Shown here: positions 28,658 through 61,062 of the stretch, in pieces
How the letters are laid out: the number at the start of each line of letters is the position of its first letter
Position numbering within the stretch: position 1 is the stretch's first letter
NCBI GenBank assembly: GCA_035714925.1
Contig: DASTLN010000126.1
Location: 5,106 to 69,105 of the forward strand
Direction of reading: 5' to 3'
Source of the DNA: Dehalococcoidia bacterium
Lineage (GTDB): Bacteria > Chloroflexota > Dehalococcoidia > DSTF01 > WHTK01
Length of the DNA stretch: 64,000 nt
Position numbers and translations under genes: made by a program
The notes under the pieces: generated by a model
What the model was told of the DNA's origin: nothing
Databases searched by the model: none
The model's input: the letters and a program-made list of their open reading frames with translations, nothing else

Positions 28658-29569
28658 TTAATCTGCTCTGGGACGGGAGTTTGCCGAGAGCGGCGGCCCC
28701 AGACCAGGCGCGTGCTCTAAACGCCCCCCGGGTGCGAAGTCCTCGATGCTGAGGTGCTCGGCCCCCGCCTCCAGGCGCATGCCGTGTGCGATCGTGTTGA
28801 ACGACAGGGAATGCATCGTCATCGCCGTCGCCTCGACGATCCCCCGGTCATCGAGACCGCAGGAATGTCGCAGTATCTGCGTCTGATAGGCGATCCAGTA
28901 CGGGCTCTGCCTGAAGAGCGCGACGGCGAAGGCCGCGCAGTTCTTCACCAGCTCATCGAGGACTCCGGGTCCGAAGATGAGCCGGTTCTTCCGCCATGCA
29001 GCCTCCAGGAAACGAGGGTGGTGCGCGAAGGCACGCCATATGTTCGGCGCTCTGTCCACGTTCAGCGCCGAGCCCGCCCACTCGCGGATCTCCGCCAGAG
29101 TAGCCGCCGCGTCCGGCGCGGAGGCTTCATCGAGGAGCTCCACCGAGGCGATGGCGGGCGCAACCTCATTGGGGATGTCAGGCTCCAGCCGGAACGCCGC
29201 GGCTGCTGCCGTCAAGCTCGCCATGTGCTCGGCGATCGCCGCCAGCTCGACTACGGCGCGGTCACTGTTGGTAAGCCGCATCACGGCGGCTGAGTGGGCA
29301 GTAAGTCAATAATTGCAGTGGTTCGTCATCGATACGGCTGTGTGTATTGCCTCCTTGGCGAGCCGCGGCAGTTTACCCTGCAGCATGTAAGCCATGCCTG
29401 TCTCCGCGTGGTTGGCTTCCAGCCAGGCAGGCCAGTGGGTCTGCACACCGAAGATCGAGGGGTTCAGAAGCTGCTCGGGAGATTGCCCCGTGCGTTTCGC
29501 CATACGTTCCAGGATGGCGCGGTCATCTTCGGAGAAGTCGGACAGTTTGGGAGTTCGGAGAGTAGTCAT
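28658..29569 (-). CDS. AhpD/carboxymuconolactone-decarboxylase (CMD) family protein with in-frame TGA at 29306-29308 at the second catalytic Cys: putative selenoprotein
   Basis: Track ORFs 29306..29569 and 28658..29284 are in the same frame, separated by one TGA plus 7 sense codons. Read-through gives ...EAIHTAVSMTNHCNY-U-LTAH..., matching the AhpD core E-x11-C-x-x-C-x-x-x-H. A hairpin begins about 15 nt after the TGA. Confidence 0.6.
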
Positions 29570-39572: not shown

Positions 39573-39582
39573 GTGATCCCTC

Positions 39583-40824
39583 CTACTTCGCCCAGAGTCG
39601 CTTCGAGGCGAGCTGCGCCCCTTGGACCATCGCCCTTAACTTCTCCCACATCGGCTCAGAGTGGACACGGGGCAGAAAGCCGGCGAAGGTACCGAAGCCG
39701 CAGTCTGGCGCCGCGATGACGTTTTCGCGGCCCACGATGTTGGCGTAGCGGATGATGCGCTGGGCGACCAGCTCCGGGGGCTCTATGAACAGGCTGACCG
39801 AGTCGATGACGCCAGGGATGAGGATCTTCCCGTCCGGGAGCTTGACGTCCTCCCAGACCTCATACTCGTGCTCATGGCGCGGATTGGCTGCCTCAATCGT
39901 GTAGGCCTGCGCTTTGACCTGGAGAACGATGTCGACGATGTCCTTGAGGGGCACGTCCCGATGGTGCGTCCCGTAAGTGTTGCCCCAGCAGATGTGAAAG
40001 CGGATGCGATCCTCAGGGATGTTTTGAAGAGCGTGGTTAAGCGCCTCGACACGAAGGGCCAGGTGCTTCCTGTAGTCCTCGAAAGGAATCTGCCACAGCT
40101 GGCGGTTGCGCATCATCGGCACGTCCGGGGCGTCCAGCTGGAGCAGGAAGCCGGCGTTGACGATGGCCTCGTACTCCAGCTTCATCGCGTCGGCCAGCGC
40201 ATAGAGATACTCGCTATCGGACTTGTAGTGGGCGCTGCGGATCATGAAGATGACCTGCCCCACGGCCACGGATGGCATGAACGCCTCTTCGTACTGCAGT
40301 CCCGTCAGCGCCTCCTTGAGGTTGGCGAGGTCCGTCTCCAGTTCCCCGCGCTCGTCTTTCCAGCCGATGGGGCCGATGTTGCGCGGCAGCGTGCCGATCT
40401 GCGCCGCGACCGGTGAGCGGCCGGGGGGCGGCGCAGCAGTCGCGGCGGTGGCTGAGCCGCTGCCCAGGCCGACGCCGCCGATGGGTCCGGCGCGCCCATA
40501 GCGACGCGAGATTTCGGCAAACTCGGGAAAGTCGTCAGGCGGACCGGGCCAGGGTTCCGATTCGACCGCCTCGAATCCGGAGAGGCGGTCCTTCATGTAG
40601 TTCGTGAAGCTGCCCTTGCTAATCTCGCCGTCCGCGACGATGTCGATGCCGACCTCGACCTGCTTCTTGACGACGGCCGCGACCTCTTCTTTCACACGCC
40701 GCGCCAGCAGGTCTTTATCGTACGGCTCGCCGGCGTCCTTGGCCAGGAGCATCTCGCGAATGTCGGGCGGCCGTGGCAGGCTGCCCACGTGAGTGGTAAG
40801 GATTCGATCGGTGCTCCGCTTCAT
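39583..40824 (-). CDS. MetE-like Zn-dependent methyltransferase family protein (paralog of 32936..34138)
   Basis: 413 aa. Conserved N-terminus (RILTTHVGSLPRPPD), Zn ligands H-x-C (FHICWG), E, C (PDCGF). Confidence 0.8.
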   Translation of the reverse strand: MKRSTDRILTTHVGSLPRPPDIREMLLAKDAGEPYDKDLLARRVKEEVAAVVKKQVEVGIDIVADGEISKGSFTNYMKDRLSGFEAVESEPWPGPPDDFPEFAEISRRYGRAGPIGGVGLGSGSATAATAAPPPGRSPVAAQIGTLPRNIGPIGWKDERGELETDLANLKEALTGLQYEEAFMPSVAVGQVIFMIRSAHYKSDSEYLYALADAMKLEYEAIVNAGFLLQLDAPDVPMMRNRQLWQIPFEDYRKHLALRVEALNHALQNIPEDRIRFHICWGNTYGTHHRDVPLKDIVDIVLQVKAQAYTIEAANPRHEHEYEVWEDVKLPDGKILIPGVIDSVSLFIEPPELVAQRIIRYANIVGRENVIAAPDCGFGTFAGFLPRVHSEPMWEKLRAMVQGAQLASKRLWAK

Positions 40825-40830
40825 TTCGAG

Positions 40831-42390
40831 TTACGCCTCTTTGCTTGTTTCAAGGTCCGCCGGTGCGCCCGTTCCCGGGCTGGAGCCCTGCCGGCCGTTC
40901 GCCGCTGGCGGTTGACCCGGCCCGGGCGGCGCCATGTTCCGCAAATACTCCACGTCGACGGCCGGCATCTCGACGTCGAGCGTGGCGAGCACTCGGCGGG
41001 TCAGTTCGTTACCTCGATCGAACCAGCGCTGCATCCTGCTGCGCCAGAGGGCGAGGCCGCCGCTGGCGTGCATCTCAAAGGCGGACTCGCGGCCGTCGAG
41101 GCCGGACGAGACGTGGTCCCAGACGAGGTTGAGCAGCGCGGCCCGCTGCTGCGCCGTGTAGCCCCCGCCGCCAAAGGACTTCTCCAGGTACGCGGCCATC
41201 TCCGTGTCCTCGAAGTCAGCGTCTGTCGGCGTGATGACGAGAGAGGACCCCGGCAGGTCGCGCAAGATCTCAGCCATACGCTGACGGACGCTCAGTGTGT
41301 AGACGGTGGACGAGACCAGGTGTAGCGGGTTGGGATAGAGATAACCCGCCGTAGACGTCTGTGGTTCCAGGGTCGCGGCCGTGAGGCAGCTTCGCATCGT
41401 CTGGGCGTGGATCATCAGGTCGACCAGCCGCGCCACGATTGCCGGGCTCTCCCGCTGCCCCATGGCGTCAGCCACGGCCAGTGCAAGGCCCAGCGTGAAG
41501 TCGGCGCGAGCCAGGTAAGAGTGCTGGTGGTGCCACACCAGCCAGCAGAAGATGCGGTCACGCTGCTGCGTCTCTTCAGGCGGTGGCGGCTCGAAGCGGT
41601 AGGCGAAGACCTTCTCCCAGGGCACGAGTACGTCTTCCAGCCAGAGGTGCGCGTCGAGCTCGTCGTAGCGGCTGGACAGCGGCGACATGAACGGCGTTTG
41701 GTAGCGCGCGGCGGGGCGGCGCGCTACAACGCGGGCTCCGGGGCTGTTGACTGCCACGGCGATCATCGCCCGCTGATTCACGTCGGGCCGCTGCAGCCCG
41801 ATGTAAACGTCGTGCGCGAAGGGCGTGCTGGTGTGCATCCCGGTCCGGCCCGAGACGACGAGTCCGGCATCGGTCTCTTTGACGATGCGCAGCGCCGAGT
41901 GCTCGCTCGGGTCGCGAAAGCGGTCGCCCAGGACCGCGGCCCCGCCCGTGAGAGTGAGAAAGAAGCCGTCGCGCTCCAGCGAATCGCGGTAGGCCTTGGC
42001 AACCGCGGGACGTCCTCCGCCCGCATCGCCGATGATCTCTGCGGCGTCCAGGATTCCCAGCGCAATCAGCGCGCCGTATGCGGGCGTGTGTGTCGCGTTG
42101 CCGGCGCTGACGATGGCCTGCGCGTAGATCGAGCGGCTCAGGCGGACCAGGTCCTCGGCTGTGCGCGGGATCCGTAGGCCGAGCGGCCGCCGGACGCCGT
42201 CCTCGTCGGGGTCGCAAAGGAGGTCATCGGCCCATTCGGGATCGGAGTGACGGTCGTACCAGAGGGCGTACTCGTCCACCAGCCCCTTGGTGGCCGGGTG
42301 CGCGGTGAGGTCCGGGACGTCTCCTTCGCCGAGGACCCAGACCTTGCGCCCGTCCCGCAGGCTGCTCTTGTACTCCGTCCCGGTCAGCAC
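40831..42390 (-). CDS. 4-hydroxyphenylacetate 3-monooxygenase (HpaB) family oxygenase component
   Basis: 519 aa. HpaB-type N-terminus (LTGTEYKSSLRDGRKVWVLGE) and family length. Confidence 0.8.
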   Translation of the reverse strand: MLTGTEYKSSLRDGRKVWVLGEGDVPDLTAHPATKGLVDEYALWYDRHSDPEWADDLLCDPDEDGVRRPLGLRIPRTAEDLVRLSRSIYAQAIVSAGNATHTPAYGALIALGILDAAEIIGDAGGGRPAVAKAYRDSLERDGFFLTLTGGAAVLGDRFRDPSEHSALRIVKETDAGLVVSGRTGMHTSTPFAHDVYIGLQRPDVNQRAMIAVAVNSPGARVVARRPAARYQTPFMSPLSSRYDELDAHLWLEDVLVPWEKVFAYRFEPPPPEETQQRDRIFCWLVWHHQHSYLARADFTLGLALAVADAMGQRESPAIVARLVDLMIHAQTMRSCLTAATLEPQTSTAGYLYPNPLHLVSSTVYTLSVRQRMAEILRDLPGSSLVITPTDADFEDTEMAAYLEKSFGGGGYTAQQRAALLNLVWDHVSSGLDGRESAFEMHASGGLALWRSRMQRWFDRGNELTRRVLATLDVEMPAVDVEYLRNMAPPGPGQPPAANGRQGSSPGTGAPADLETSKEA

Positions 42391-42403
42391 GATGCGCTCC
42401 TCA

Positions 42404-42853
42404 CTAACTCTTGCTCACTTCCGCCTGGGATGACTCAATCATCGACCTCACGAGCGGCCCGGCAGTGCCCTCGTTCAGCATCCAACTGCACAGCGTGTGG
42501 GTGCGCCAACCGGCCGCCTCGAAGGGCTCGCTGGCCGCTATGGCCTCGGCAGCCTCGCGAGACGGCGCCACGATGAAGTACATGCCGCTGGCATCGATCA
42601 GCCTCTCGCCGGCCGGGGTGCTGTCGCGGTACTTCACCAGCGTCGAGGCGCGGCCGAAGTCGTCGAGCGGGCCGGCGGCCAGGAGGATGCCCTTGTCCTC
42701 CATCTCGAGCTGGAACTGCAGATGGCGGCGCATGATCTCGCGGCCTTCCTCGGACTCGGTGTCGTACTTCTCGGTCGGCCGCATAAAGATGGCATAGAGC
42801 TGCAACCGCGCCATGCGGGACATGATCTCGTCCATCGACATCTCGCGTGTCAT
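42404..42853 (-). CDS. YciI-like (Dabb) domain protein
   Basis: 149 aa. YCII-related fold signature. Confidence 0.55.
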   Translation of the reverse strand: MTREMSMDEIMSRMARLQLYAIFMRPTEKYDTESEEGREIMRRHLQFQLEMEDKGILLAAGPLDDFGRASTLVKYRDSTPAGERLIDASGMYFIVAPSREAAEAIAASEPFEAAGWRTHTLCSWMLNEGTAGPLVRSMIESSQAEVSKS

Positions 42854-42871
42854 CGCCTTTTCCTCCCGGCC

Positions 42872-43858
42872 TTAGGCCTGCATTTTCAGTAGCCGGCGGG
42901 CGTTGCCGTTGAGCATCTTTCCCTTGTCTTCTTCCGACAGCGGCACTGTCTCCATCCATCGCATGCCGGGCAGGTTCTCCACGAAGGGCCAGTCGACGGA
43001 GAACAGGACCCGGTCGATTCCCATCTGGAGGATGGTGCAGAGCAGCGCGGGTGTGGAGAAGAAGCCGCTGGTCGTGACGTAGAAGTGGTCGCAGAACGTC
43101 TTCTTGAACTCCATGGGCTTGCTGCCCTCGCGTTTGAACGCCTCGTCCATGCGGTCGAGCATGAAAGGCAGACCTTCGCCGAGGTGGCCGAGGATGATCT
43201 TCAGGTCAGGGAAGCGGTTGAATAGCCCGCTGAGCACCATGCGCATTGCCTGGTTCGCCGTGTCGATCGTGTAGCCCCAGGCTGCCGAGGTGAGCCACGG
43301 GAAGTCGGGGATGAAGTCTCCGTAGTATGCCTCCACGACGGCGGGATGGGGCGGGCCGGGATGGAGGTAAATCGGCACGTCCAGCGCCTGAGCGCGCTCG
43401 AAGATGGGATAGAACCGCTCATCGTCGTGGAACGCGCCCTGGCTGCGTCCGTGGATCATGGCGCCTTTGAAGCCGAGCTTCCTGACGCAGCGTTCCAGCT
43501 CTTCGGCAGCGGCCCCGGGGTGCGGCGTCGGCAGCGCCGCGAAGCCCGCGAAGCGCTCGGGATGCCTGGCGACGGCCTCGGCCAGCCGGTCGTTGGCGCC
43601 GATGGCCATCTCCACGGCCTTGTCCGGCTCCAGCTGTTGCACCGGTGACGGCGTATGCGACAGCACCTGCACGTCTATGCCCGCCGCATCCATGTCACGC
43701 AGCCGTACCTCGCCGAGATCCGGCAGGCGTTGGAAGATACCCGACGTAGGCGATCTGGCCTGGCCGCCGCCGTCTGGCCGTGGCGCACCGGCCTGCAGGA
43801 GCGGGTCGGCATAATGCTCTTCCAGGGCGATAACGAAGGGCTTGGTCGATTGAGTCAC
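42872..43858 (-). CDS. amidohydrolase-2 family protein (third paralog)
   Basis: 328 aa. ALEEHYADP N-terminus, amidohydrolase-2 blocks. Confidence 0.8.
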   Translation of the reverse strand: MTQSTKPFVIALEEHYADPLLQAGAPRPDGGGQARSPTSGIFQRLPDLGEVRLRDMDAAGIDVQVLSHTPSPVQQLEPDKAVEMAIGANDRLAEAVARHPERFAGFAALPTPHPGAAAEELERCVRKLGFKGAMIHGRSQGAFHDDERFYPIFERAQALDVPIYLHPGPPHPAVVEAYYGDFIPDFPWLTSAAWGYTIDTANQAMRMVLSGLFNRFPDLKIILGHLGEGLPFMLDRMDEAFKREGSKPMEFKKTFCDHFYVTTSGFFSTPALLCTILQMGIDRVLFSVDWPFVENLPGMRWMETVPLSEEDKGKMLNGNARRLLKMQA

Positions 43859-43954
43859 GCTGGACCTCGAGAGCTAAGTGCGACCGCGCAGTCGACTCAG
43901 GATGCTTCGCTTCATGACTCAACCCTTCATGATTCGGGGCGGGCGTAGCTATGG

Positions 43955-44908
43955 TTAGACCGGCGGCGCCACCCAAAGGCCCGTGTCGGGCTGACGCATC
44001 CGGGTCGAGGGCAGGTCTCCGGCCTGTGCCTGCCTGGCGGGTGGGTCCATCTGCGTGCCCGCAGGCCGGCCGGGCATCTGGGCCGTGCCCCACATGTCGG
44101 TCGGTGGATGCTCGCGCGGCGTCCAGGCGCTTTCGTCCGTGATCTGCTCAACTTCCGAGGTGTACTCGGAGACGTTGCCCTGGGGATCGAAGAAGTAATA
44201 GAAGGTGTTGTCGCCGGCCGAGTGCCTGCCGGGGCCCATCAGGATGCGCGCGCGCCCATCCTTCATCACACGCCCGGACCCGCGCATCATGTCGTCAATG
44301 CTGCCCACTTCGAACGCGACGTGGTTCAGCGTCGCGACTTCTCCGTCGGCGATTGCAAGGCTGTGGTGATTGGCGTTGCAGCGGTAGAAGCCCATGAAAG
44401 GGATCCAGTCCGAGAGCTTGAAACCCAGGCGTTCCGCGTAGAACGCCTCGACCTCCTTGCGGTTGGGTGAGTTCAGCACGACGTGGTTGAGGGTAACCGG
44501 TATTCCCTCGCGGGGTTCGACCTCTCGGAAAGACCTTTGCTCCACCCCAGCCGACACTTCTACGACGCGGCCGTCGGGGTCGAAGAAACGGAAGCCATAG
44601 CCGCCGCCCGGCGTTTGCAGCTGGCCGGGCTCGGACACGAAGCGAACTCCGGCTGCCGCGAGGTCGGCGGCGAGCTGGTCAATGTCTTCGGGGGAGTCGG
44701 CGCCCAACGCGATCAGGTCGAGGCGCTTCTCGTCCGCCTTCCGGATTCGGTAGACGTATTGCTCGGGAGAACCTTCCGCGGCGAGGAAAGCGATGTCCTT
44801 CTCGCCGTCCGTCCGCTTCAACCCCCAGACACCGCCATAGAAGTCAACCTGCTGTTCGAAGTCTGGTACGGCCACGTCTACGTGCCTGAGACTGCTTACT
44901 TTCGCCAT
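43955..44908 (-). CDS. extradiol ring-cleavage dioxygenase (two-domain VOC, catechol 2,3-dioxygenase-like)
   Basis: 317 aa with tandem VOC domains (HVDVAVPDF..., LNHVVLNSPN..., LNHVAFEV). Confidence 0.8.
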   Translation of the reverse strand: MAKVSSLRHVDVAVPDFEQQVDFYGGVWGLKRTDGEKDIAFLAAEGSPEQYVYRIRKADEKRLDLIALGADSPEDIDQLAADLAAAGVRFVSEPGQLQTPGGGYGFRFFDPDGRVVEVSAGVEQRSFREVEPREGIPVTLNHVVLNSPNRKEVEAFYAERLGFKLSDWIPFMGFYRCNANHHSLAIADGEVATLNHVAFEVGSIDDMMRGSGRVMKDGRARILMGPGRHSAGDNTFYYFFDPQGNVSEYTSEVEQITDESAWTPREHPPTDMWGTAQMPGRPAGTQMDPPARQAQAGDLPSTRMRQPDTGLWVAPPV

Positions 44909-44931
44909 GAGTATCCTCCGTCTAATGAGTG

Positions 44932-46092
44932 CTAATGAAACGGGTCGAGGGGCGGCAGGCCCAGGGCCGCTCGTCCGTACCCCTCCGCGATGGAATCCCA
45001 GTAGAGTGCCATCTGATGCGAGCCGGCGTGGATGTCACGGTGGAACCGCTGCAAGGCCTGCGACTCGTAGAGAGCATGGCCGCCGCTGGCCTCGAATAGC
45101 CGGTTCGCGGCCTGCAGGCAGAGCTTTGCCACATAGCCATAGTCGCGGCGAATCCTTGCCTGCTCGAGTTCGTTCGGCAGTTCACCACGCGAAGCCTGTT
45201 CCAGCACCTCTCGCGGCGTGGTCTTGACAATGCGCCTGGCGGCGTCGATTTCGGCCGAAGACTCAGCGATTCGCAATTGGATCGCAATTGAGTCGGCCGT
45301 GCGACCCGGACCGGTCTTGCCCTGAAGCTTCTCGATGAAAGCATCGAGCATGCCCTGGGCCATGCCTACCAGCGGGGAGCACAGCGTGAAGGGCAGCAGG
45401 CTCATCGTCGGCAACCGGTAGCTCGGCCGACCGTGGAGCTCGAACCCTGGGCTGTCGTAACCGGGGAGCATGAGTGCTGCGACGCGGTGAGCCGGGACAA
45501 ACGCGTCCTTGATTTCGATGTCCTTGCTCCCCGTCCCGCGCAGGCCGGAGACGAACCACGTGTCCAGGATCTCGTAGTCTGAGCGCGGCACGAGGGCCAT
45601 GCACGGGCCAGCCGGCCCCATCGCCCCGAGCATGGCCCAGCTGGCGCCATCGCTACCGCTGGAGAAATCCCAGTGCCCGTTAAGGCGGAAGCCGCCCTCC
45701 ACGGGTTCGATTCTTCCCTGAATCGCAAAGGCGCTGGAGCCGAGCACGTCCGGCCCGGCCGCGAAGTACTCTTCCTGGGCCTCCAGCGGCCAGTGGCCGA
45801 TCATCCAGTCGTGACTGGACCACACGGAGAAGCACCAGGCCGTGGAGCCGCAAGCGCGGCCGATCTCCATGTCGAGCTCGAAGTAGAGGTCCATGTCGGC
45901 GCCGTCATAGCCCCCGAAACGGCGCGGGTTGCCGACTCGAAGCAATCCGGCGGACCTGAGGTCGTCGATGGTCGCCTGCGGTATCTGGCGCAGCTTCTCA
46001 GCCTCTGACGCGCGTTCCTTGAGGACAGGCAGGAGGTCGGCGGCTCGATTCAGCAGGTCCTCCCTGCTGACGGTCTCGGCTTCGATGGCCAT
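44932..46092 (-). CDS. acyl-CoA dehydrogenase-type flavin-dependent monooxygenase oxygenase component (HsaA/C2-like; paralog of 31741..32877)
   Basis: 386 aa, ACAD domains. Divergent from the LysR gene. Confidence 0.8.
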   Translation of the reverse strand: MAIEAETVSREDLLNRAADLLPVLKERASEAEKLRQIPQATIDDLRSAGLLRVGNPRRFGGYDGADMDLYFELDMEIGRACGSTAWCFSVWSSHDWMIGHWPLEAQEEYFAAGPDVLGSSAFAIQGRIEPVEGGFRLNGHWDFSSGSDGASWAMLGAMGPAGPCMALVPRSDYEILDTWFVSGLRGTGSKDIEIKDAFVPAHRVAALMLPGYDSPGFELHGRPSYRLPTMSLLPFTLCSPLVGMAQGMLDAFIEKLQGKTGPGRTADSIAIQLRIAESSAEIDAARRIVKTTPREVLEQASRGELPNELEQARIRRDYGYVAKLCLQAANRLFEASGGHALYESQALQRFHRDIHAGSHQMALYWDSIAEGYGRAALGLPPLDPFH

Positions 46093-49130: not shown

Positions 49131-49165
49131 TTGATAAGTGGGGTCGGCCCAGACCGGGCTGACCC
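49131..49165 (+). promoter_or_regulatory. intercistronic stem-loop after the SBP gene
   Basis: GTGGGGTC...GACCCCAC 8-bp stem with no U-tract, between the SBP stop and the FAH RBS. Analogous hairpin CGGGCT-N16-AGCCCG follows the other SBP gene at about 34140-34180. Confidence 0.35.
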
Positions 49166-49194
49166 CACTTCCTAACGAAGGGGAAGGATTGGAC

Positions 49195-50295
49195 ATGAGA
49201 CTCGTGTCGTTCGAGGTCAGCACCGCGTTGGGACCTGTACGCCGCATCGGGGCTGTAATGGACGCGCAACTGGACGAGGTGGCGCGCATAATCGACCTCA
49301 GCGCGGGGTACTCGCAGCTCCTGCGCGAGGGCGGCGACCCGCGTGGCGGGGAGATCGCCGCCGCCGCGCTGCCGCCGGACATGCTCGCGTTCCTCGAAGG
49401 CGGCGCCCCGGCCATGGACCGCGCTCGCCAGGTCCTCGACTTCGCCGGCCAGCGCAAAGATGGGCAGAGCGATGGCGCTCAACTGATCTTTGCCCGCGGC
49501 GACGTCAAGCTACTGGCGCCGCTGCCGCGGCCGCGTACAATGCGCGACTTCTCCGAGTATGAGGAGCACATGTCGACTCGGACCGGAGCACAGCACAAGC
49601 AGCCCGGCTTCTATCACTTCGCATGCTGCTACAAGGGCAACCCGGACATGGTCTTTGGACCCGACGACCCGATTATCTGGCCCGACTACACGGAGAAGCT
49701 CGACCCGGAGCTCGAGCTGGCCTGCGTCGTCGGCAAGCGCGGAAAGAACCTGACGCCTGAAGAAGCCGGCGACTACATCGCCGGCTACCTTATTTTCTGT
49801 GACGGGTCGGCGCGCGACGTGATGGCCAAGGAGTATTTGGGCCCCTACAAAGCAAAGGACTTCGGGACCAACCTGGGGCCGTGTCTCGTGACCCCGGACG
49901 AGGTCGGCGACGAGCTGAACCTGCGCTGCTCGCTTAAGGTCAACGGCGAAACGTGGTACGAGGGCAACACCGGCTGGAGGCGCAACTATTCAATGCCCCA
50001 ACTCCTGGCCTACGCCTCGGACTCCGAAGAGATACAGCCGGGCGACGTCATATCCGCCGGCACGATCGGCCTCAGCTGCAGCGTCGACTCGGGCAAGTGG
50101 CCGCAACCGGGAGACGTGGTCGAGCAGTGGATCGAGAACATCGGGACGATGACGATGCGCTGCGAGCGGCAACCACGCGAGGTGTCCTATGTGCGCGACG
50201 GCCTGCCTGGCCTGCTGCCCTTGCCGCCCGGTGCGGAGGACTACCCGCAGAAGCTCAAGGACGGCAGCGTGGACCCGCTCGCTTCGCGGCGCTAG
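49195..50295 (+). CDS. FAH family protein
   Basis: ATG at 49195 after GGAAGGA. FAH blocks (ELELACVVGKRG..., FCDGSARD). Confidence 0.85.
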   Translation: MRLVSFEVSTALGPVRRIGAVMDAQLDEVARIIDLSAGYSQLLREGGDPRGGEIAAAALPPDMLAFLEGGAPAMDRARQVLDFAGQRKDGQSDGAQLIFARGDVKLLAPLPRPRTMRDFSEYEEHMSTRTGAQHKQPGFYHFACCYKGNPDMVFGPDDPIIWPDYTEKLDPELELACVVGKRGKNLTPEEAGDYIAGYLIFCDGSARDVMAKEYLGPYKAKDFGTNLGPCLVTPDEVGDELNLRCSLKVNGETWYEGNTGWRRNYSMPQLLAYASDSEEIQPGDVISAGTIGLSCSVDSGKWPQPGDVVEQWIENIGTMTMRCERQPREVSYVRDGLPGLLPLPPGAEDYPQKLKDGSVDPLASRR

Positions 50296-50314
50296 AGACT
50301 GGAGGAGAAGAACG

Positions 50315-50896
50315 ATGGGTGAGGAGCATTACAAGCTGCCGCCGCCGATGCCCAAAGACCCGGACTACGTGTATCCAGCACGCGCGGATCGCGTGTCCAA
50401 CGACGCGCCGCTAGAGTCGGCGCGCCCCGGTCGTGTCACGCCCCATGTGGTCGCCGAGGTCATCCTGCACGAGGGCCAGCTCAAGGAGGGGCGCGTCCAG
50501 GGGTTCACCATCCGCTGCGACGAGGGGCTGTATATTCCGGGCGCCACCGATACGGCGCCGTCACCGCTCGGCTACTTCACGACTGCGATCGGGTTTTGAA
50601 TGGGCACGCATATTGCGGGCGTCGCCCGCAGACAGAACCTGGACTTGAAGGTGAAGATAACCGTCGACGGCGAGTACTTCTCTGAGGGCTCAATCTTGCG
50701 CGGCGACCGTAAGGCCGGTGCCGAGTCGGTTCAAGTCAACGTGGCAGTCGAGGGGGAGCACCCACCAGACCTCATCGCCCGCATCGTCCGGGAGGCAGAG
50801 GCTGGATGCTTCACGATAAACGCTCTGCGCAATCCCTCACCAGTGACCGTCAGCGCGACACTGAACGGCTCGTCCGTTCAGGAGTCGGCGGTCTAG
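50315..50896 (+). CDS. OsmC/Ohr family peroxiredoxin with in-frame TGA at 50597-50599 at the peroxidatic Cys: putative selenoprotein
   Basis: Track ORFs 50189..50599 and 50600..50896 are contiguous and in-frame. ATG at 50315 after GGAGGAG. Read-through gives ...TAIGF-U-MGTHIAGVA... and a downstream AEAGCFTINAL (resolving Cys, OsmC CxxxNAL motif). GC hairpin about 15 nt after the TGA. Confidence 0.6.
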
Positions 50897-50915
50897 CTAC
50901 AGAAGACGAGGACTC

Positions 50916-51815
50916 ATGCCTGTAAGACCTGCGCCGAAGTGGCAGACCGGCCTGCAGGAGGTCGCGCCCAACACCTACGCCTACCTGCAGCACGACGGCA
51001 GCTGGGGGATCAGCAACGCCGGCTTTCTGGCCGGCGACGACGGCCTTCTCGTCATCGACGCCACGATGGTGGCCTCCATGGCGGAGGCGTTCATCAAGGA
51101 GATCCGGCGCGTCTCGGACAAGCCGTTTCGGCACTTGATCAACACGCATAGCCATCCCGACCACATCGGCGGTAACCGCCTTTTCACGGGAGCCGAAATC
51201 ATCAGCCATCGCATCTGCCGCGAGGAAATGGCGGGGACGTGGACCAGACCGCTCGCGGGCGAGCTGCCGCGAGGGCCGATGAGCCTCATGCCCCGGACGC
51301 CCGCGCTTGAGCGGATGTTCGAGATGGTGGCGAACGACCCCGACCGCTCCATCCCCTTACCGGACGTCACCTACGACGACAGTCTCACGCTGCATTACGG
51401 TGAGACGGAGGTTCAGCTTCTCTACTACGGTCCGGCTCACACCTTCGGCGACACGCTGGTCTACTTCCCGCAGTCGAAGGTCCTGTTCGCGGGGGACGTG
51501 GCGTTCTTCTATGCCATGCCCCTCGTGGCGGGCGAGGTCGGTGGCTGGCTCCATGTCATCGACCGCGTCAAGGAGCTGGACATCGAGCTTATCGTCCCCG
51601 GCCACGGGCCGGTTGGCGGAAAGCGGGAGCTGGAGGATGAGCGCGAGTACTTCGAATTCGTGATGGAGCAGTCGCGTAGGTGCTTCGAGCGTGGCCTGAC
51701 GCCTGAGGAGGCGGTCAAAGAAATAAACCTGGGGCCCTACGCCGAGTGGCCGGAGGCCGAGCGCTTCATCGCCAACGTCGCCGTGGCCTACCGAGAGTTG
51801 CGCGGCGAACTTTGA
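50916..51815 (+). CDS. MBL-fold metallo-hydrolase
   Basis: 299 aa. NTHSHPDHIGG motif. Confidence 0.8.
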   Translation: MPVRPAPKWQTGLQEVAPNTYAYLQHDGSWGISNAGFLAGDDGLLVIDATMVASMAEAFIKEIRRVSDKPFRHLINTHSHPDHIGGNRLFTGAEIISHRICREEMAGTWTRPLAGELPRGPMSLMPRTPALERMFEMVANDPDRSIPLPDVTYDDSLTLHYGETEVQLLYYGPAHTFGDTLVYFPQSKVLFAGDVAFFYAMPLVAGEVGGWLHVIDRVKELDIELIVPGHGPVGGKRELEDEREYFEFVMEQSRRCFERGLTPEEAVKEINLGPYAEWPEAERFIANVAVAYRELRGEL

Positions 51816-51853
51816 TCGGGGCCGATGTCACAACGAAGGTGGGACACTGAGCG

Positions 51854-52315
51854 ATGCCTGGTCCCTCGGTAAGACGCGTGATCACCGGACATAACGCAGG
51901 AGGGCTCGCGGTTGTTCAGACGGACGAGGTCGCCCGCGGGGCGCGGTTTACCCTGATCTGGACAACGGAGGGCTTTCCGGTGGATAACACGGATCCTCGC
52001 GATGGGGGCGAGCGAGAGGTTGGTATTACCATACCTGGAGGCACGGTGTTTCGCGTAGGCGAGATCGGGCCCGGCGCCAGGTCTCCAATGCACCGCACCA
52101 ACTCCGTCGACTACGGCATCGTCCTCGAAGGCGAGCTGGACATGGAGCTGGACGGCGGCGACCGTGTTCATCTCAAAGCGGGTGACGTGGTGGTCCAGCG
52201 TGGTACGAATCACGCCTGGATAAACGACAGCCACCAGCCTGCCAGGATGGCCTGGATCCTCCTCGACGCCGAGCCGGTCCGCATCGGCGACCGCGTCCTG
52301 GAACCGACGATGTGA
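51854..52315 (+). CDS. cupin domain protein
   Basis: 153 aa. Cupin motifs (RSPMHRTNSVDYGIVLEGEL..., GDVVVQRGTNHAW). Confidence 0.7.
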   Translation: MPGPSVRRVITGHNAGGLAVVQTDEVARGARFTLIWTTEGFPVDNTDPRDGGEREVGITIPGGTVFRVGEIGPGARSPMHRTNSVDYGIVLEGELDMELDGGDRVHLKAGDVVVQRGTNHAWINDSHQPARMAWILLDAEPVRIGDRVLEPTM

Positions 52316-52325
52316 GCCGCGTGAT

Positions 52326-53015
52326 ATGGACAAGGTATTCGACAGCCCGGCTGCAGCCATCCACGACGTCTTCGACGGCGCGACGATCATGTTCGGCGGC
52401 TTCGTGTCGGCCGGCAGCCCGACCAACCTCATCCTCGCCCTGTACGAGAAGGAGACGAAGGACCTCACCGGCATCGCCAACAATATCGGCCTCGGCGACA
52501 AGCTGGACGTCCTCTGCGAGAAGAAGCAGCTGCGCAAGATGATCGCATCATTCGCCATCCGCGCCTCGGCCAAGCGGCAGAGCCTGTTCGAGCAGCTCTA
52601 CGCCAAGGGCGAGGTCGAGTTGGAGCTGGTGCCGCAGGGTACGCTGGCCGAGCGCATCCGCGCGGGCGGCGCCGGCATACCGGCCTTCTACACGCCGACC
52701 GGGGTCGGCACTGTCGTCGCGGAAGGCAAGCGCGTCGAATGCTTCGACGGCCGCGAGTACATCCTGGAGCGCGCGCTGACCGCCGATTTCGCCTTCATCC
52801 GCGCCCACAAAGCCGACCACCACGGCAATCTTATATATAGAAGGGCATCACGAAATTTCAACGAGATCATGGCCACCGCCGCCCGCGTCACCATCGCCGA
52901 GGTCGAGGAGATCGTCGAGCCCGGCGAGCTCGATCCCGAGGCTATCGTCACACCCGCCGTTTACGTCGACCGCATCGTAAAGGCGCCTGCTTATGACGTC
53001 CGCTGGTTTAACTAG
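52326..53015 (+). CDS. 3-oxoacid CoA-transferase subunit A (PcaI/ScoA/AtoD family)
   Basis: 229 aa. Canonical subunit A N-terminus and blocks (GFVSAGSP, ELELVPQGTLAERIRAG). Confidence 0.9.
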   Translation: MDKVFDSPAAAIHDVFDGATIMFGGFVSAGSPTNLILALYEKETKDLTGIANNIGLGDKLDVLCEKKQLRKMIASFAIRASAKRQSLFEQLYAKGEVELELVPQGTLAERIRAGGAGIPAFYTPTGVGTVVAEGKRVECFDGREYILERALTADFAFIRAHKADHHGNLIYRRASRNFNEIMATAARVTIAEVEEIVEPGELDPEAIVTPAVYVDRIVKAPAYDVRWFN

Positions 53016-53658
53016 AGAGCTGATCGCGCTGCGCGTGGCGCGCGAGCTGCGCGACGGCATGGTCGTCAACCTCGGCATCGGCCTGCCCACTCTCGTTGCG
53101 AACTTCCTGCCGGAGGACGCAACCATTGTCCTGCACGCCGAAAACGGCATTCTCGGCTACGGCGGCATCGTCACGGACGAGGCCGAGTTCGATCAGGACC
53201 TGATCAACGCCGGCGGCCAGCCGGTGACGCTCGCCCCGGGCGCGTCGTTCTTCGACAGCGCGACGTCCTTCGCCATGATCCGCGGCGGTCACGTCGACGT
53301 CACCGTGCTGGGTGGGCTGCAGGTCTCGGCGCAGGGTGACCTGGCCAACTGGGCCGTGGCGGGCCGGGGCGGCGGCGCCATCGGCGGCGCTATGGACCTG
53401 GCGGCGGGCGCCAAGCGCGTCATCGTCGCCATGGAGCACACCACGCGTGACGGCGAGCCGCGCATCCTGGAGCAGTGCACCTATCCGCTGACCGCGCAGC
53501 GCTGCGTTGACCTCATTGTCACGAACCTTGCAGTCATCGAGGTAACCGGCCAGGGGCTGGCGCTTCGCGAGGTCGCGCCGGGCGTTAGCGCCGATGAAGT
53601 GCGGGCGGCGCCGGCAGCGCGGCTCATAATTGAAGACGTGAAGGTCGTGGACCTCTAA
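52993..53658 (+). CDS. 3-oxoacid CoA-transferase subunit B (PcaJ/ScoB/AtoA family)
   Basis: 221 aa. Subunit B blocks ([10 protein letters not shown], catalytic-Glu region AMEHTTRDG). 23-nt overlap with subunit A. Confidence 0.9.
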
Positions 53659-53695
53659 CCGTGCAGGGCGCCTGAGCGGTGCAGGCGCCGGGAGA

Positions 53696-54877
53696 ATGGC
53701 AATGGATGAAGTAGTCGTAGTTAGCGGCGCCAGGACGGCCATCGGCCGTTTCCAGGGAGGCTTCGCCGAGACGCCGGCGTCGGATCTCGCCGCGGCCGTA
53801 ATCAAAGCTGCCGTCGAGCGAAGCGGTCTGCAGCCCGAGCAGGTCGACCAGGTTGTGCTGGGCTGCGTCGGCCAGGTGATGGAGGACGCTTACATCGCCC
53901 GTCACGCCGCCGTGAAGGCGGGTCTGCCGATCGAGGTGCCGGCCTACACGGTCAACCGTATCTGCGGTTCCGGCCTGGAGGCGATCAACACGGCCGCACG
54001 CTGGATCGAGTGCGGCGACGCCGAGGTTGTCGTCGCAGGCGGCGCCGAGAACATGACGCGGCTGCCGCACTACCTGCGCGCCGCCCGCTCTGGCTATCGC
54101 CTTGGCGACGGTAAGCTGGAGGACGGCATCCTGCACGTGCTGAGCGACCCCTTCAACCGCTACCACATGGGCGTCACGGCGGAGAACCTGGCGGCCGAGT
54201 TCGAGATATCGCGCGAGGTGCAGGACGAATATGCGCTGCGCAGCCAGCGACGCGCCTCCGCCGCCCTAGCCGCCGGCCGCTTCCAGGACGAAATCGTGCC
54301 GCTAGAGGTACACAACGGCCGCGAGACATTGGTCGTCGACCGCGACGAGCACCCCCGCGAGACCTCGACGGAGGCGCTGGCGAAGCTCTCGCCGGCGTTC
54401 AAAGAAGGCGGCAGCGTAACGGCCGGCAACGCCAGCGGCATCAACGACGGCGCCGCGGCGGTCATGCTCATGTCCGCTGCGAAGGCGGGCGAACTTGGCG
54501 TGGCGCCGAAGCTGCGCCTGGTCGCCAGGGCGGAGGCCGGGGTGCGGCCGGAGATCATGGGCTCAGGGCCGATCCCGGCCGTCGAGAAGGCGCTGGCCAA
54601 AGCCGGATTGACCGTCGACGATCTCGACGTTGTAGAGCTAAACGAGGCCTTCGGCGCGGTCGCTGCCGCCTGCAGCCTCGCGCTGGGACTCGATCCCGAA
54701 AAGGTGAACCCTAACGGTGGCGCGATTGCGCTGGGCCATCCCGTCGGCGCTTCCGGCGCAATCCTGGTCGTCAAGCTGATGTACGAGCTAGAGCGCCGCC
54801 AGGGCCGCCACGGCATGGTCACTCTTTGCATCGGCGGCGGGCAGGGCATCGCCACCATCTTCGAGCGCGTTAGTTGA
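53696..54877 (+). CDS. acetyl-CoA C-acyltransferase (thiolase; PcaF/FadA-like)
   Basis: 393 aa. Thiolase active-site regions ([38 protein letters not shown]). Confidence 0.9.
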
Positions 54878-54887
54878 GGAGAGAGCG

Positions 54888-55916
54888 GTGAGAGTAGTCG
54901 TTTACGGGCCGGAGCGCAGGGTTGGCATTCTGGAAGGCGATAGCGTGGTCGACGCCGAGCGCGCCTACGCCAAGCTGGCGCACGAAGTCCAGGACCACCC
55001 CGCGCCGTACAGGGCGGCCACCGCGACCGCGCCGGCGGACCTCGAGGCCTTCATCCAGCTCGGCGACAGGGCGATTGATGCCGCACACGAGGCCGTCGAG
55101 TATCTAGGGAAGCGCCGCGCGGATCAGTCTGGGCCTAGAGGCGAGCCGGTCGTCTTCCCACTTTCGGAAGCGAGGCTGCGCGCGCCGCTGGCCCACCGCG
55201 GCGTCAAGCTATGTATGGCCGGGGCGAACTACGCCGACCACCTCTTCGACATGATGCGGGCGCAGGACCCCAGCGTGACCATGGCGCAGGTCAAGGAAAG
55301 GTCGCGCGAGCGCGGCATCGGCGGGTTCTGGAAGCACCCGTCGTTCGTTGCGGACCCCGAGGCCGACATCGTCTATCCCGCAAAGACCCGCTACCTCGAC
55401 TACGAGGGCGAGGTAGCCATCGTAGTCGGGAAAGCGGCAAAGGACGCGAGTGCAGGCGACCTGCTGGACTACATCTGGGGCTACACGCTGCAGAACGACT
55501 GGAGTGCCCGCGATCAACGCGACAACGCCGTGGGCACGCTTTCCTTTGCCGGCATGAAGAACTGGGACGGCTCATCGTCGATTGGGCCGTGCATCGTCGT
55601 TGGCGAGATCAAGGACCCGCAGGACATCGACTTTCAGACCACCGTCAACGGCGAGCTGCGCCAGAACGGCAACACCAGCGGGATGACCTTCAGCTTCGCG
55701 GAGTACCTGGAGTACGCGACCCGGGATGTCACATTCACCGCCGGAGACATGATCGCCGCCGGCACCTGCAAGGGCACGGCGATGGACTCGACGCCTCGTA
55801 TCGAAGGCGGCGGTTTCGAGAACGACAAGCTGTTCTTGAACGCGGGCGACGTGGTCGAGGTGTCGTCGCCGCAGATCGGCGCGCTGCGCAACCGGGTGGT
55901 GGCGAAGAAGGCTTAG
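54888..55916 (+). CDS. FAH family protein (third paralog)
   Basis: GTG start after GAGGAGAGAG. FAH blocks (YEGEVAIVVGKAAKD, YTLQNDWSARD). Confidence 0.85.
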   Translation: MRVVVYGPERRVGILEGDSVVDAERAYAKLAHEVQDHPAPYRAATATAPADLEAFIQLGDRAIDAAHEAVEYLGKRRADQSGPRGEPVVFPLSEARLRAPLAHRGVKLCMAGANYADHLFDMMRAQDPSVTMAQVKERSRERGIGGFWKHPSFVADPEADIVYPAKTRYLDYEGEVAIVVGKAAKDASAGDLLDYIWGYTLQNDWSARDQRDNAVGTLSFAGMKNWDGSSSIGPCIVVGEIKDPQDIDFQTTVNGELRQNGNTSGMTFSFAEYLEYATRDVTFTAGDMIAAGTCKGTAMDSTPRIEGGGFENDKLFLNAGDVVEVSSPQIGALRNRVVAKKA

Positions 55917-60673: not shown

Positions 60674-60789
60674 AGTCAGCGACTCGTCGGGGTGGGATGG
60701 TGGTCAGGCAGACTAAGGAGCAGAACATCGTGAGCCTGATTTCCAGATTCTTCCGCCGTGACGGCGAGGCGCAGCAAGGGGGACCTCAC

Positions 60790-61062
60790 GTGGTTGAGCG
60801 CCCCCTGGCCGACCCTCCGGCAGTCACGGTCTATACGACGGGGTGGTGCGCCAGTTGCTTTATGGCCAAGCGCTATCTGCAGCAGAAGGGCGTTGCCTTC
60901 CGCGAAATCGACATCGAACGCGTACCGGGCGCCGCCAGAGAGGTCATGAACCTGGCGCGTGGGTACAAGACGGTCCCCACCTTCATCATCGGGGAATCCG
61001 TGGTGGTGGACTGGGACCAGCGTGCGGTAGCGTCTGCGCTCACCAGAGAGGGATTGCTCTGA
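60790..61062 (+). CDS. glutaredoxin/NrdH-like thioredoxin-fold protein (CASC motif)
   Basis: VTVYTTGWCASCF...TVPTFIIGE. GTG at 60790 after GGGGGA gives a 90-aa Grx-sized product. Track ORF starts at 60697 and another GTG lies at 60730. Confidence 0.6.
   Translation: MVERPLADPPAVTVYTTGWCASCFMAKRYLQQKGVAFREIDIERVPGAAREVMNLARGYKTVPTFIIGESVVVDWDQRAVASALTREGLL

What the first reader, a model, noticed from the sequence alone, without database searches (positions are those of the whole stretch)
50315..50896. OsmC/Ohr-family peroxiredoxin with in-frame TGA at the peroxidatic cysteine position: second putative selenoprotein
ORFs 50189..50599 and 50600..50896 are perfectly contiguous and in-frame (GGG TTT TGA ATG GGC). 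With the RBS-supported ATG at 50315 the read-through protein is ...SPLGYFTTAIGF-U-MGTHIAGVA.... The downstream half carries the OsmC resolving-Cys motif AEAGCFTINAL (OsmC consensus A-E-x-x-C-P-V-S-N-A-L). The TGA therefore sits where OsmC proteins carry the peroxidatic Cys. A GC hairpin (UGCGGG-CGUCGC-CCGCA, GUC in the loop) starts about 15 nt after the UGA, the same spacing as at the AhpD-like gene. OsmC-like proteins are also a known selenoprotein family.
Basis: partly seen in the sequence, partly recalled or inferred. Interest (0 to 1): 0.8.

Follow-up and report, generated by a model that had tools for sequence, protein, structure and literature searches.

The report
OsmC-like selenoprotein gene, known family
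The in-frame TGA is almost certainly a selenocysteine codon in a single 193-residue OsmC-like redox protein, but this selenoprotein family was described in 2005 and NCBI already has a curated model for it, so this is a correct but ordinary find.

Summary
ORFs 50189..50599 and 50600..50896 are contiguous in one frame and are separated only by TGA 50597-50599. ATG 50315 follows a GGAGGAG ribosome-binding site.

Read through, the 193-aa product matches Pfam OsmC end to end. It scores 119 bits (cut-off 95) on NCBIfam NF041052, "OsmC-related (seleno)protein". The site carries the U-x-x-T motif published for OsmC-like selenoproteins.

All ~50 related metagenomic loci that span the site have TGA at this codon. 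The next codon is usually Leu, so the second half cannot be a separate gene. Full-length Cys homologues have Cys in that column. A family profile aligns the column with Ohr Cys60, which is the peroxidatic Cys by textbook knowledge, and aligns Cys165 with Ohr Cys124.

An 8-bp hairpin with a GUC loop (50613-50631) starts 13 nt after the UGA. Hairpins of different sequence sit at the same place in every clade, with compensatory changes.

The same contig holds two more in-frame-TGA redox genes: an AhpD-like CxxU gene and a Prx/deiodinase-like TUPPF gene.

The Sec machinery could not be examined, because the source is a metagenome contig. Peroxidase activity is inferred; the Ohr catalytic Glu is replaced by Leu.

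Verdict: a new member of a known kind, of low interest.

The parts
50301..50307 (+). Shine-Dalgarno-like GGAGGAG, upstream of the start codon
   Evidence: Read from the sequence. GGAGG ends 9 nt before ATG 50315.
50315..50896 (+). Single coding sequence of a 193-residue OsmC-related selenoprotein: Met1, Sec95, Cys165, TAG stop at 50894-50896.
   Evidence: Pfam OsmC 47 bits over profile positions 2-99 of 100; NCBIfam NF041052 119.3 bits against a cut-off of 95. The start matches the gene call of the source assembly and the N-termini of homologues.
50597..50599 (+). In-frame TGA read as selenocysteine (Sec95). It is the first residue of a U-M-G-T (UxxT) motif.
   Evidence: TGA sits at the same codon in all ~50 related loci spanning the site. 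Full-length homologues have Cys here. The column aligns with Ohr Cys60.
50613..50631 (+). SECIS-like hairpin inside the coding sequence: UUGCGGGC / GUC / GCCCGCAG. The loop is at 50621-50623, and its GU is the first two bases of the Val103 codon.
   Evidence: 8 bp, 13 nt after the UGA, base rate for such hairpins <0.63%. A hairpin occupies the same place in 38 of 40 distinct family sequences. Covariation: 93.8% of cells paired against 38-60% when the partner is slid, and 2 pairs with changes on both sides.
50807..50809 (+). TGC codon of Cys165, the second invariant Cys (AEAGCFTINAL) and the putative resolving residue.
   Evidence: Invariant in alignments A2 and A3. Aligns with Ohr Cys124 and with the second Cys of 3cje and 9wo1.

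Best explanation
Window 50315..50896 is one gene for a 193-residue protein of the OsmC/Ohr/YhfA fold. It belongs to the already curated 'OsmC-related (seleno)protein' family.

The UGA at 50597-50599 is most likely decoded as selenocysteine. In that model, SelB carrying Sec-tRNA(Sec) is recruited by the hairpin at 50613-50631, which lies 13 nt downstream inside the reading frame.

Sec95 replaces the N-terminal, nucleophilic (peroxidatic) Cys of Ohr/OsmC, and Cys165 is the partner residue. The inferred chemistry has three steps. The selenolate attacks a hydroperoxide or another oxidant. The resulting selenenic acid is captured by Cys165 as a selenenylsulfide. A dithiol reductant (a lipoyl protein, an AhpD-like protein or a thioredoxin-like protein) then regenerates the enzyme.

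Shown here: gene unity, family membership, conservation of the TGA, Cys/Sec column equivalence, and a conserved hairpin that shows compensatory changes.

Inferred: actual Sec insertion, the catalytic cycle, the substrate and the reductant.

The gene sits 19 nt from each neighbour, between an FAA-hydrolase gene and a metallo-beta-lactamase-fold gene, inside an aromatic-catabolism-like cluster. It is therefore probably co-transcribed with them.
For: The two ORFs are contiguous in one frame, and only the fusion matches Pfam OsmC end to end. NCBIfam NF041052 OsmC_like_Se scores 119.3 bits against a cut-off of 95, over model positions 4-144 of 144. The UxxT motif is the one published for OsmC-like selenoproteins (PMC1088965; PMC13188914).

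TGA occupies the identical codon in all ~50 metagenomic or MAG loci that span the site, including the 3 homologues from the 5.8-billion-protein database, each of which ends at ...GF. In most loci the next codon is CTN (Leu).

Full-length homologues P0013 and P0062, which share the LPxPMxIDPxYV N-terminus, and about 15 others have Cys in that column. C95 and C165 are invariant in A3. Profile alignments to 3cje, 9wo1 and 1vla and to Ohr 1n2f (Cys60 and Cys124) place the same residues in register.

The hairpin has a base rate below 0.63% and is present in 38 of 40 distinct sequences, in several different sequence forms. Covariation includes GC->UA and GC->UG changes. Stem codons are almost invariant at synonymous sites while the loop varies.

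TGA is otherwise an ordinary stop in this window, which rules out a reassigned genetic code.

Other in-frame-TGA redox genes with similar hairpins lie on the same contig: AhpD-like C-N-Y-U at 29308-29306(-) and Prx/deiodinase-like GAIT-U-PPF.
Against: No tRNA-Sec, SelA, SelB or SelD is present in the window or in the readable part of the contig. The source is a metagenome contig, so the rest of the genome is unseen.

No Rfam family matches the hairpin. Rfam models are not expected to capture short, variable bacterial SECIS elements, so this is uninformative. The folding energy of the 64 nt after the UGA is not exceptional (z = -1.25). Synonymous-site suppression over the hairpin is modest, and other parts of the gene are equally conserved.

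In this particular sequence, and in L066, the codon after the TGA is ATG, which taken alone would allow a stop-restart reading.

Peroxidase function is not established for this subfamily. The position of Ohr's catalytic Glu50 is an almost invariant Leu (compare the YhfA-type proteins described in PMC8945050).
Confidence: 0.9

Rival explanations
1. There are two separate small genes, a 94-aa N half and a 98-aa C half that starts at ATG 50600. They would be translationally coupled through the overlapping UGA-AUG and would assemble into a split OsmC fold.
For: In the window, the codon after the TGA is ATG. Automatic gene callers annotated two genes.
Against: In about 50 homologues the codon after the TGA is CTN or TTT, not a start codon. 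There, callers had to begin the second ORF 5 or more codons later, inside a conserved helix. No Shine-Dalgarno motif precedes 50600. Cys-containing homologues are single polypeptides with Cys exactly at the junction. The break falls on the invariant catalytic residue in the middle of the Pfam domain.
Confidence: 0.03
2. The gene is a pseudogene or carries a sequencing or assembly error, so the TGA is a nonsense mutation or a miscalled TGC/TGT.
For: A single base change converts TGC or TGT into TGA. This is metagenome-assembled sequence.
Against: TGA sits at the same codon in ~50 independently assembled contigs from many samples, spanning 45-60% protein identity. Both halves are under purifying selection, and a conserved hairpin follows the TGA.
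Confidence: 0.01
3. The UGA is read through by something other than Sec, for example near-cognate Trp or Cys insertion or a local recoding signal. Alternatively, it mostly terminates, giving a truncated regulatory product, and the hairpin merely slows the ribosome.
For: Sec machinery was not observed. Sec insertion itself cannot be shown from sequence.
Against: The site is the redox-active Cys column of a family already curated as a selenoprotein family with the same UxxT motif. The hairpin has the position, size and loop G/U typical of bacterial SECIS elements. Two further redox genes on the contig have TGA exactly at classical Sec positions, CxxU and TUPPF. TGA is a normal stop elsewhere in the window.
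Confidence: 0.05

Closest known systems
OsmC-related (seleno)protein family: NCBIfam NF041052 'OsmC_like_Se', the OsmC-like selenoprotein of Zhang et al. 2005 (Genome Biol 6:R37; COG1765, motif UxxT)
   Same: The score is above the curated cut-off (119.3 versus 95) over the whole model. U sits at the first conserved Cys within a UxxT motif (U-M-G-T). The second Cys is conserved. A hairpin with G in its apical loop lies directly downstream of the UGA.
   Different: The window protein and its soil-metagenome relatives carry a ~45-residue N-terminal extension with a conserved LPPPMPKDPxYV motif. This extension lies outside the NCBIfam domain model, whose match starts at residue 45. The original family members were marine sequences. 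I could not compare directly with the published sequences.
Ohr / OsmC thiol peroxidases (P. aeruginosa Ohr 1N2F; E. coli OsmC 1QWI/1NYE)
   Same: The Pfam domain (PF02566) is the same. The two conserved redox residues align: U95 with Ohr Cys60 and C165 with Ohr Cys124. By homology, the expected chemistry is the same: a nucleophilic chalcogen plus a resolving Cys.
   Different: Sequence identity is only ~20%. Sec replaces the first Cys. The position of Ohr's catalytic Glu50 is Leu85 here. An invariant D69-E70 pair, absent from OsmC, lies upstream. The motif around the second Cys is C-F-T, not the VCPY of Ohr. Peroxidase activity is untested.
Structural-genomics OsmC-like proteins 3CJE, 2OPL and 1VLA, and the YhfA/COG1765 branch (1ML8)
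   Same: These are the best solved relatives of the family profile: 3cje E = 8.7e-23, 2opl 3.4e-14, 1vla 9.6e-09. They share the AP-x-PL...G-x-C first motif and, in 3cje, the G-C-F second motif. According to the review PMC8945050, the YhfA branch also lacks the Arg/Glu pair of Ohr/OsmC.
   Different: Those proteins have Cys, not Sec. Their functions are unknown, so they add no mechanistic information.
Bacterial SECIS elements (E. coli fdhF type)
   Same: The element is a stem-loop inside the ORF, 11-14 nt after the UGA, with a small apical loop containing G-U. The main-clade element, GUGCA-GGU-UGCAC, resembles my recollection of the fdhF upper stem-loop; that resemblance rests on memory and was not tested here.
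   Different: SelB binding was not tested. No bulged U is evident. The hairpin register differs by 1 nt between clades of the family.

Membership tests
NCBIfam NF041052 OsmC-related (seleno)protein | Whole-protein score at or above the curated cut-off of the model | tested here: met
   119.3 bits against a cut-off of 95; E = 1.2e-34; residues 45-185 match model positions 4-144 of 144 (with U entered as C).
NCBIfam NF041052 / OsmC-like selenoprotein (Zhang 2005) | Sec or Cys at the first conserved redox position, within a UxxT motif | tested here: met
   The window has U95-M-G-T98. The main clade has U-L-A-T. Cys homologues have C-L-x-T/S. The motif is listed as UxxT in PMC1088965 and PMC13188914.
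Bacterial selenoprotein gene (general) | In-frame UGA aligned with Cys in homologues and conserved as UGA in orthologues | tested here: met
   About 50 of ~50 loci spanning the site have TGA. Nineteen full-length homologues have an invariant Cys in that column.
Bacterial selenoprotein gene (general) | SECIS-like stem-loop immediately downstream of the UGA with a G in a small apical loop. By my recollection of the Zhang & Gladyshev bSECIS model, the UGA-to-loop distance should be about 16-37 nt. | tested here: met
   8-bp stem at 50613-50631 with loop GUC. Twenty-one nt lie between the UGA and the loop. The hairpin is conserved in 38 of 40 sequences, and covariation is shown. No curated covariance model was available; Rfam gave no hit.
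Bacterial selenoprotein gene (general) | The genome encodes tRNA-Sec, SelA, SelB and SelD | not testable with these tools
   None are present in the 64-kb window or in the readable flank. The source is a 74.7-kb metagenome contig. Indirect support comes from two further in-frame-TGA redox genes on the contig.
Bacterial selenoprotein gene (general) | Selenium is actually incorporated at the UGA | not testable with these tools
   Requires 75Se labelling or mass spectrometry.
Pfam PF02566 OsmC | Domain match above the gathering score | tested here: met
   47 bits against 27.5, over profile positions 2-99 of 100, spanning the TGA.
Ohr/OsmC thiol peroxidases (characterised enzymes) | Two conserved Cys, peroxidatic and resolving | tested here: met
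   U95 aligns with Ohr Cys60 and C165 with Ohr Cys124. The reference sequences were verified against the PDB.
Ohr/OsmC thiol peroxidases (characterised enzymes) | Catalytic Glu (Ohr Glu50) and Arg (Ohr Arg18) next to the peroxidatic Cys | tested here: not met
   In the profile alignment, Ohr P49-E50 aligns with P84-L85, and Leu is nearly invariant in the family. The Arg position lies outside the aligned region and is inconclusive. D69-E70 are invariant elsewhere in the protein.
Ohr/OsmC thiol peroxidases (characterised enzymes) | Hydroperoxide reductase activity with a dithiol or lipoyl reductant | not testable with these tools
   A biochemical assay is needed.

The most novel reading that the evidence does not exclude
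The window protein belongs to a soil-borne branch of OsmC-like proteins in which every member recovered here carries Sec. This branch has a conserved proline-rich N-terminal extension (LPPPMPKDPxYV). In its main clade the gene is regularly paired with a Prx-like U-x-x-C selenoprotein gene (FYRGHW-U-PYC). The two could form a dedicated two-selenoprotein peroxide-detoxifying module. In the window organism, the OsmC-like gene has instead been recruited into an oxygenase-rich aromatic-catabolism operon, where it might remove pathway-derived peroxides or quinones. Because gene callers split these genes, the branch is nearly invisible in protein databases: it gave only 3 hits among 5.8 billion proteins.
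Probability: 0.3. Interest if true: 0.4.

Novelty: new member of a known kind. Interest (0 to 1): 0.22.

Why it matters
The practical value is in annotation. The two 'hypothetical' half-genes at 50315-50599 and 50600-50896 should be merged into one selenoprotein. The same applies to the AhpD-like gene at 28658-29569(-) and to dozens of split genes in soil metagenomes.

The finding also marks the source organism as a Sec user. It has at least three selenoprotein genes within ~75 kb, in a 64% GC, oxygenase-rich, apparently aerobic catabolic context. This adds to the evidence that redox selenoproteins are common in soil bacteria.

It does not open a new mechanistic question. The family, its UxxT motif and its SECIS-type hairpin were described in 2005, and the family has a curated NCBIfam model.

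Tried and rejected
- Rfam found nothing, either at gathering thresholds on the whole window or at E <= 10 on 50500-50750. This is uninformative for bacterial SECIS elements.
- ARAGORN found no tRNA, and so no tRNA-Sec, in the window or in L064.
I used the C half instead.
- MAFFT placed E. coli OsmC Cys59 two columns away from the U column at 19% identity. hhalign against the single OsmC sequence aligned the wrong Cys motif, with probability 3.7%. I discarded both in favour of the HMM profile alignments to Ohr, 3cje, 1vla and 9wo1.
- The AlphaFold model of Cys homologue P0062 from a single sequence was unusable (pLDDT 40). I ran no fold search.
- I considered that the glutaredoxin ORF 60697..61062, which ends in TGA and weakly hits the 'UXX-star' selenoprotein models, might be a third selenoprotein. 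I rejected this: it has an ordinary CASC site, and 6 codons rather than 2 follow the TGA.
- The window gene's neighbours (SBP_bac_5, FAA hydrolase, MBL fold, cupin, CoA transferase) are not conserved next to the homologues.
- Extending the contig to look for sel genes did not work. Only proteins encoded in the window can be looked up, two look-ups found nothing, and the 10 kb gained beyond the 3' end holds no sel genes.
- Pfam scans of 30 further window ORFs found no SelA, SelB or SelD.
- The synonymous-site conservation test over the hairpin was only suggestive.
- Four long 'hits' of the representative search (P0008, P0012, P0014, P0015) are unrelated repeat proteins.
- The organism could not be identified. 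The only genome hit is an unclassified 'MAG: bacterium'.

Full report
**The observation**

Searches show that ORF 50189..50599 ends in TGA (50597-50599). ORF 50600..50896 begins at the very next codon in the same frame (GGG TTT TGA ATG GGC). The mechanical ORF start at 50189 overlaps the upstream FAA-hydrolase gene (49138..50295).

The plausible start is ATG 50315. It lies 9 nt after GGAGG (GGAGGAG at 50301-50307) and 19 nt after the upstream TAG. The gene caller of the source assembly chose the same start, and the N-termini of homologues align with it (MGEEHYKLPPPMPKDP versus MTQKTHELPPPMPKDP). Reading through gives a 193-residue protein with the special residue at position 95 and a Cys at position 165 (codon 50807-50809).

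**One gene, and which family**

With Cys entered for the TGA, the protein matches Pfam OsmC (PF02566) across profile positions 2-99 of 100, at 47 bits against a cut-off of 27.5. The N half alone matches nothing, and the C half alone falls just below the cut-off at 26.7 bits.

The protein also scores 119.3 bits, against a curated cut-off of 95, on NCBIfam NF041052 'OsmC_like_Se: OsmC-related (seleno)protein'. That match covers model positions 4-144 of 144.

The literature held here confirms that 'OsmC-like protein' (COG1765, motif UxxT) has been a recognised prokaryotic selenoprotein family since the Sargasso Sea analysis (PMC1088965). It is still listed in a 2026 review (PMC13188914). The window sequence reads U-M-G-T, which is UxxT.

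**Comparative evidence for the TGA**

A word-indexed search of 5.8 billion proteins returned only three relatives, and all three end at ...PLGYFTVAVGF, the residue just before the TGA. Their contigs show TGA at that codon and a conserved in-frame continuation: LATQLVQVARALH...AEATCFTLTALRNPSPV.

Scanning metagenome contigs with an alignment of the read-through proteins gave 58 loci, and the genome collection gave one MAG locus. Every locus that spans the site, about 50 in all, has TGA at the same codon. In nearly all of them the next codon is CTN (Leu), which cannot start an independent gene. Two more relatives, retrieved through their C-terminal halves, also have TGA.

An exhaustive phmmer search with the C half found 107 cluster representatives. 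Of these, 71 are 115 aa or shorter. All 26 that I inspected begin shortly after the U column, so they are presumably second halves of other split genes. About 20 hits are full-length proteins of 165-211 aa.

The full-length proteins include P0013 and P0062, which share the LPxPMxIDPxYV N-terminus. All of them have Cys exactly in the U column (GF-C-L-x-T). C95 and C165 are invariant in a 19-sequence alignment.

TGA is an ordinary stop for many well-delimited genes in the window, for example 50916..51815. The genetic code is therefore not reassigned.

**Is it the peroxidatic position?**

phmmer and profile searches against PDB sequences align the U column with the first Cys of 3cje, 1vla and 9wo1. 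They align C165 with the second Cys of 3cje and 9wo1.

I recalled the sequences of E. coli OsmC and P. aeruginosa Ohr from memory and verified them against 1qwi/1nye and 1n2f. A local hmmsearch with the family profile then aligned the U column with Ohr Cys60 and C165 with Ohr Cys124. By established knowledge (Lesniak et al. 2002/2003; reviewed in PMC8945050), the N-terminal Cys of Ohr/OsmC is the peroxidatic residue and the C-terminal Cys is the resolving one.

The same alignment puts Leu85 at the position of Ohr's catalytic Glu50, and 'PL' is almost invariant in the family. In this respect the branch resembles the YhfA/COG1765-type proteins, which lack the Arg/Glu pair and have no demonstrated activity. 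'Peroxidatic' is therefore a statement of positional homology. The peroxidase cycle is an inference.

A MAFFT alignment with E. coli OsmC was off by two columns, and an hhalign run against the single OsmC sequence was spurious. I discarded both.

**The hairpin**

From the U of the UGA (= 0), positions 16-23 (UUGCGGGC) pair with positions 27-34 (GCCCGCAG) around the loop GUC. This corresponds to window 50613-50631 and lies 13 nt after the UGA.

Only 0.63% of all positions in the window are followed, at 8-20 nt, by a stem of >=7 bp with a 3-7 nt loop containing GU. The total folding energy of the 64 nt after the UGA is unremarkable (z = -1.25).

Of 40 distinct family sequences, 38 have a hairpin at the same place. 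One exception (L055) diverges from the family sequence about 7 codons after the TGA, so it is probably a frameshifted or chimeric contig. The other (L015) has one mismatch.

The hairpin sequences differ between clades:
- Main clade: GCUCGUGC-AGGUG-GCACGAGC, or GUGCA-GGU-UGCAC, 11 nt after the UGA.
- L005: UUGCGGU-CGUGU-GCCGCAA.
- L006 and L048: GUGGGC-GU[U/G]-GCCCGC.
- L067: CUUGUGUUC-GUU-GGACGCAGG.

In every clade the loop G-U is the start of a conserved Val codon, eight codons after the UGA.

Among the six sequences that share the window's register, 93.8% of cells pair, against 38-60% when the 3' partner is slid by 1-3 columns. Two pairs show changes on both sides (G-C to U-A, and G-C to U-G), brought about by amino-acid replacements on both arms. 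Six of 500 shuffles reach the observed score. The sample is small.

In the main clade the stem codons GUG, CAG, GCA and CGA are almost invariant at synonymous sites, while the loop codon varies between GUG and GUU. Mean synonymous diversity is 0.145 over the hairpin codons, 0.21 upstream and 0.28 downstream. Other stretches of the gene are equally conserved, so this test is only suggestive.

The position, size and loop G fit what I know of the bacterial SECIS consensus. Rfam gave no match, which is not informative for such short elements.

**The Sec-decoding trait**

The window comes from a metagenome. ENA assembly ERZ27256989, contig k141_4310402 (74.7 kb), covers window positions from about 21.9 kb to 64 kb and continues beyond the 3' end. 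No tRNA-Sec, SelA, SelB or SelD is present in the window or in the 10 kb of flank that could be read.

There is indirect support:
- The AhpD/CMD-like gene at 28658..29569(-) has an in-frame TGA at 29308-29306 in a C-N-Y-U...H motif (PF02627; TIGR00778 above its cut-off). A 6-bp hairpin with a GU-containing loop follows 14 nt downstream.
- About 7.5 kb beyond the window end, the same contig has a Prx/deiodinase-like gene reading EFGAIT-U-PPF. Its TGA is followed after 12 nt by GGCGA-GGUC-UCGCC.
- In more than 20 main-clade loci the OsmC-like gene lies next to a Prx-like gene with FYRGHW-U-PYC.

**Context**

The gene lies 19 nt from each neighbour in a co-directional run: FAA hydrolase, the OsmC-like gene, an MBL-fold protein, a cupin, CoA-transferase A and B, a thiolase, and another FAA hydrolase. 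HpaB, an extradiol-dioxygenase-like protein, an amidohydrolase, an acyl-CoA dehydrogenase and a LysR regulator lie upstream. This looks like an aromatic-catabolism cluster. The context is not shared by the homologues, so it says little about the family's core role.

**Rivals**

- Split gene with restart at ATG 50600. This is excluded in practice by the Leu codons in homologues, the absence of a ribosome-binding site, and the single-chain Cys homologues.
- Pseudogene or sequencing error. This is excluded by conservation across about 50 independent contigs.
- Non-Sec read-through or termination. This cannot be excluded formally without machinery or protein data. It is unlikely given the family, the motif, the hairpin and the companion genes.

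**Verdict**

The gene is a genuine, previously unannotated member of a known selenoprotein family. It is not a new kind of system. My confidence is about 0.9 that it is a Sec-encoding single gene, and about 0.6 that it acts as a hydroperoxide or other oxidant reductase through a Sec95-Cys165 selenenylsulfide. Interest is low. The main value is corrected annotation, plus the side observations on a soil branch with only Sec forms found and its pairing with a Prx-like selenoprotein.

Noticed in passing
window 28658-29569 (- strand); TGA at 29308-29306: An AhpD/CMD-like gene is split by an in-frame TGA in a C-N-Y-U...H (CxxU) motif. Read through, it gives a 303-aa protein (PF02627, TIGR00778). A 6-bp hairpin, AGCCGC-CGUGAU-GCGGCU, follows 14 nt after the UGA. 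Its C-terminal ~180 residues (the ORF 28658-29284) have no confident domain match.
   Followed up: partly
L064 (same ENA contig, about 7.5 kb beyond the window 3' end), - strand; TGA first base at L064 2153: A Prx/deiodinase-like (AhpC-TSA) gene is split by an in-frame TGA in ...VVLEFGAIT-U-PPFVGE..., the TUPPF motif I recall from iodothyronine deiodinases. The hairpin GGCGA-GGUC-UCGCC follows 12 nt later. It sits in a redox island with three more redoxin or thioredoxin genes, a Crp-type regulator, a radical-SAM gene and a methyltransferase gene.
   Followed up: partly
L011, L013, L016, L018, L019, L022, L024, L027, L030, L031, L033, L035-L037, L041, L042, L045, L047, L058, L063 (e.g. L063 5772-6269, - strand): In the main clade, the OsmC-like selenoprotein gene lies next to a ~165-aa Prx-like gene on the opposite strand. 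That gene has an in-frame TGA in FYRGHW-U-PYC (UxxC) and its own downstream hairpin, GCGGC-AGUUA-GCCGC. This is a conserved pair of selenoprotein genes.
   Followed up: partly
window 50315-50450 and homologues (residues 8-21): A conserved proline-rich N-terminal motif, LPPPMPKDPxYV, precedes the OsmC domain in the Sec clade and in the closest Cys homologues (P0013, P0062). It lies outside the Pfam and NCBIfam domain models. Its function is unknown.
   Followed up: no
window 60697-61062 (+): A glutaredoxin ORF ending in TGA weakly matches the 'UXX-star' selenoprotein models (53.6 bits, cut-off 66). It has a normal CASC active site, and 6 codons rather than 2 follow the TGA before the next stop. 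It is an ordinary glutaredoxin, not a selenoprotein.
   Followed up: yes
window 36773-46092 and 49138-55916: There are two clusters of aromatic or ring-cleavage-type catabolic genes: HpaB-like monooxygenase, extradiol dioxygenase/glyoxalase, Amidohydro_2, three FAA-hydrolase-family genes, two MBL-fold genes, CoA-transferase A/B, thiolase, and MarR and LysR regulators, each with an SBP_bac_5 solute-binding protein gene. The OsmC-like selenoprotein gene is embedded in the second cluster.
   Followed up: partly
one search hits P0008, P0012, P0014, P0015: Four very long proteins (1076-2662 aa) scored as 'homologues' of the C half through 11-31 weak repeated matches. The two I inspected (P0012, P0014) are unrelated tandem-repeat proteins, so these hits are false positives of score summation.
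   Followed up: yes
window 1-21871 versus 21872-64000: The ENA contig that carries the finding covers only window positions from about 21.9 kb onward. Part of the 5' portion (11428-12753) is found on a different JGI metagenome contig (L065), and two other window proteins are not on record. The window therefore derives from another assembly of a near-identical genome.
   Followed up: no
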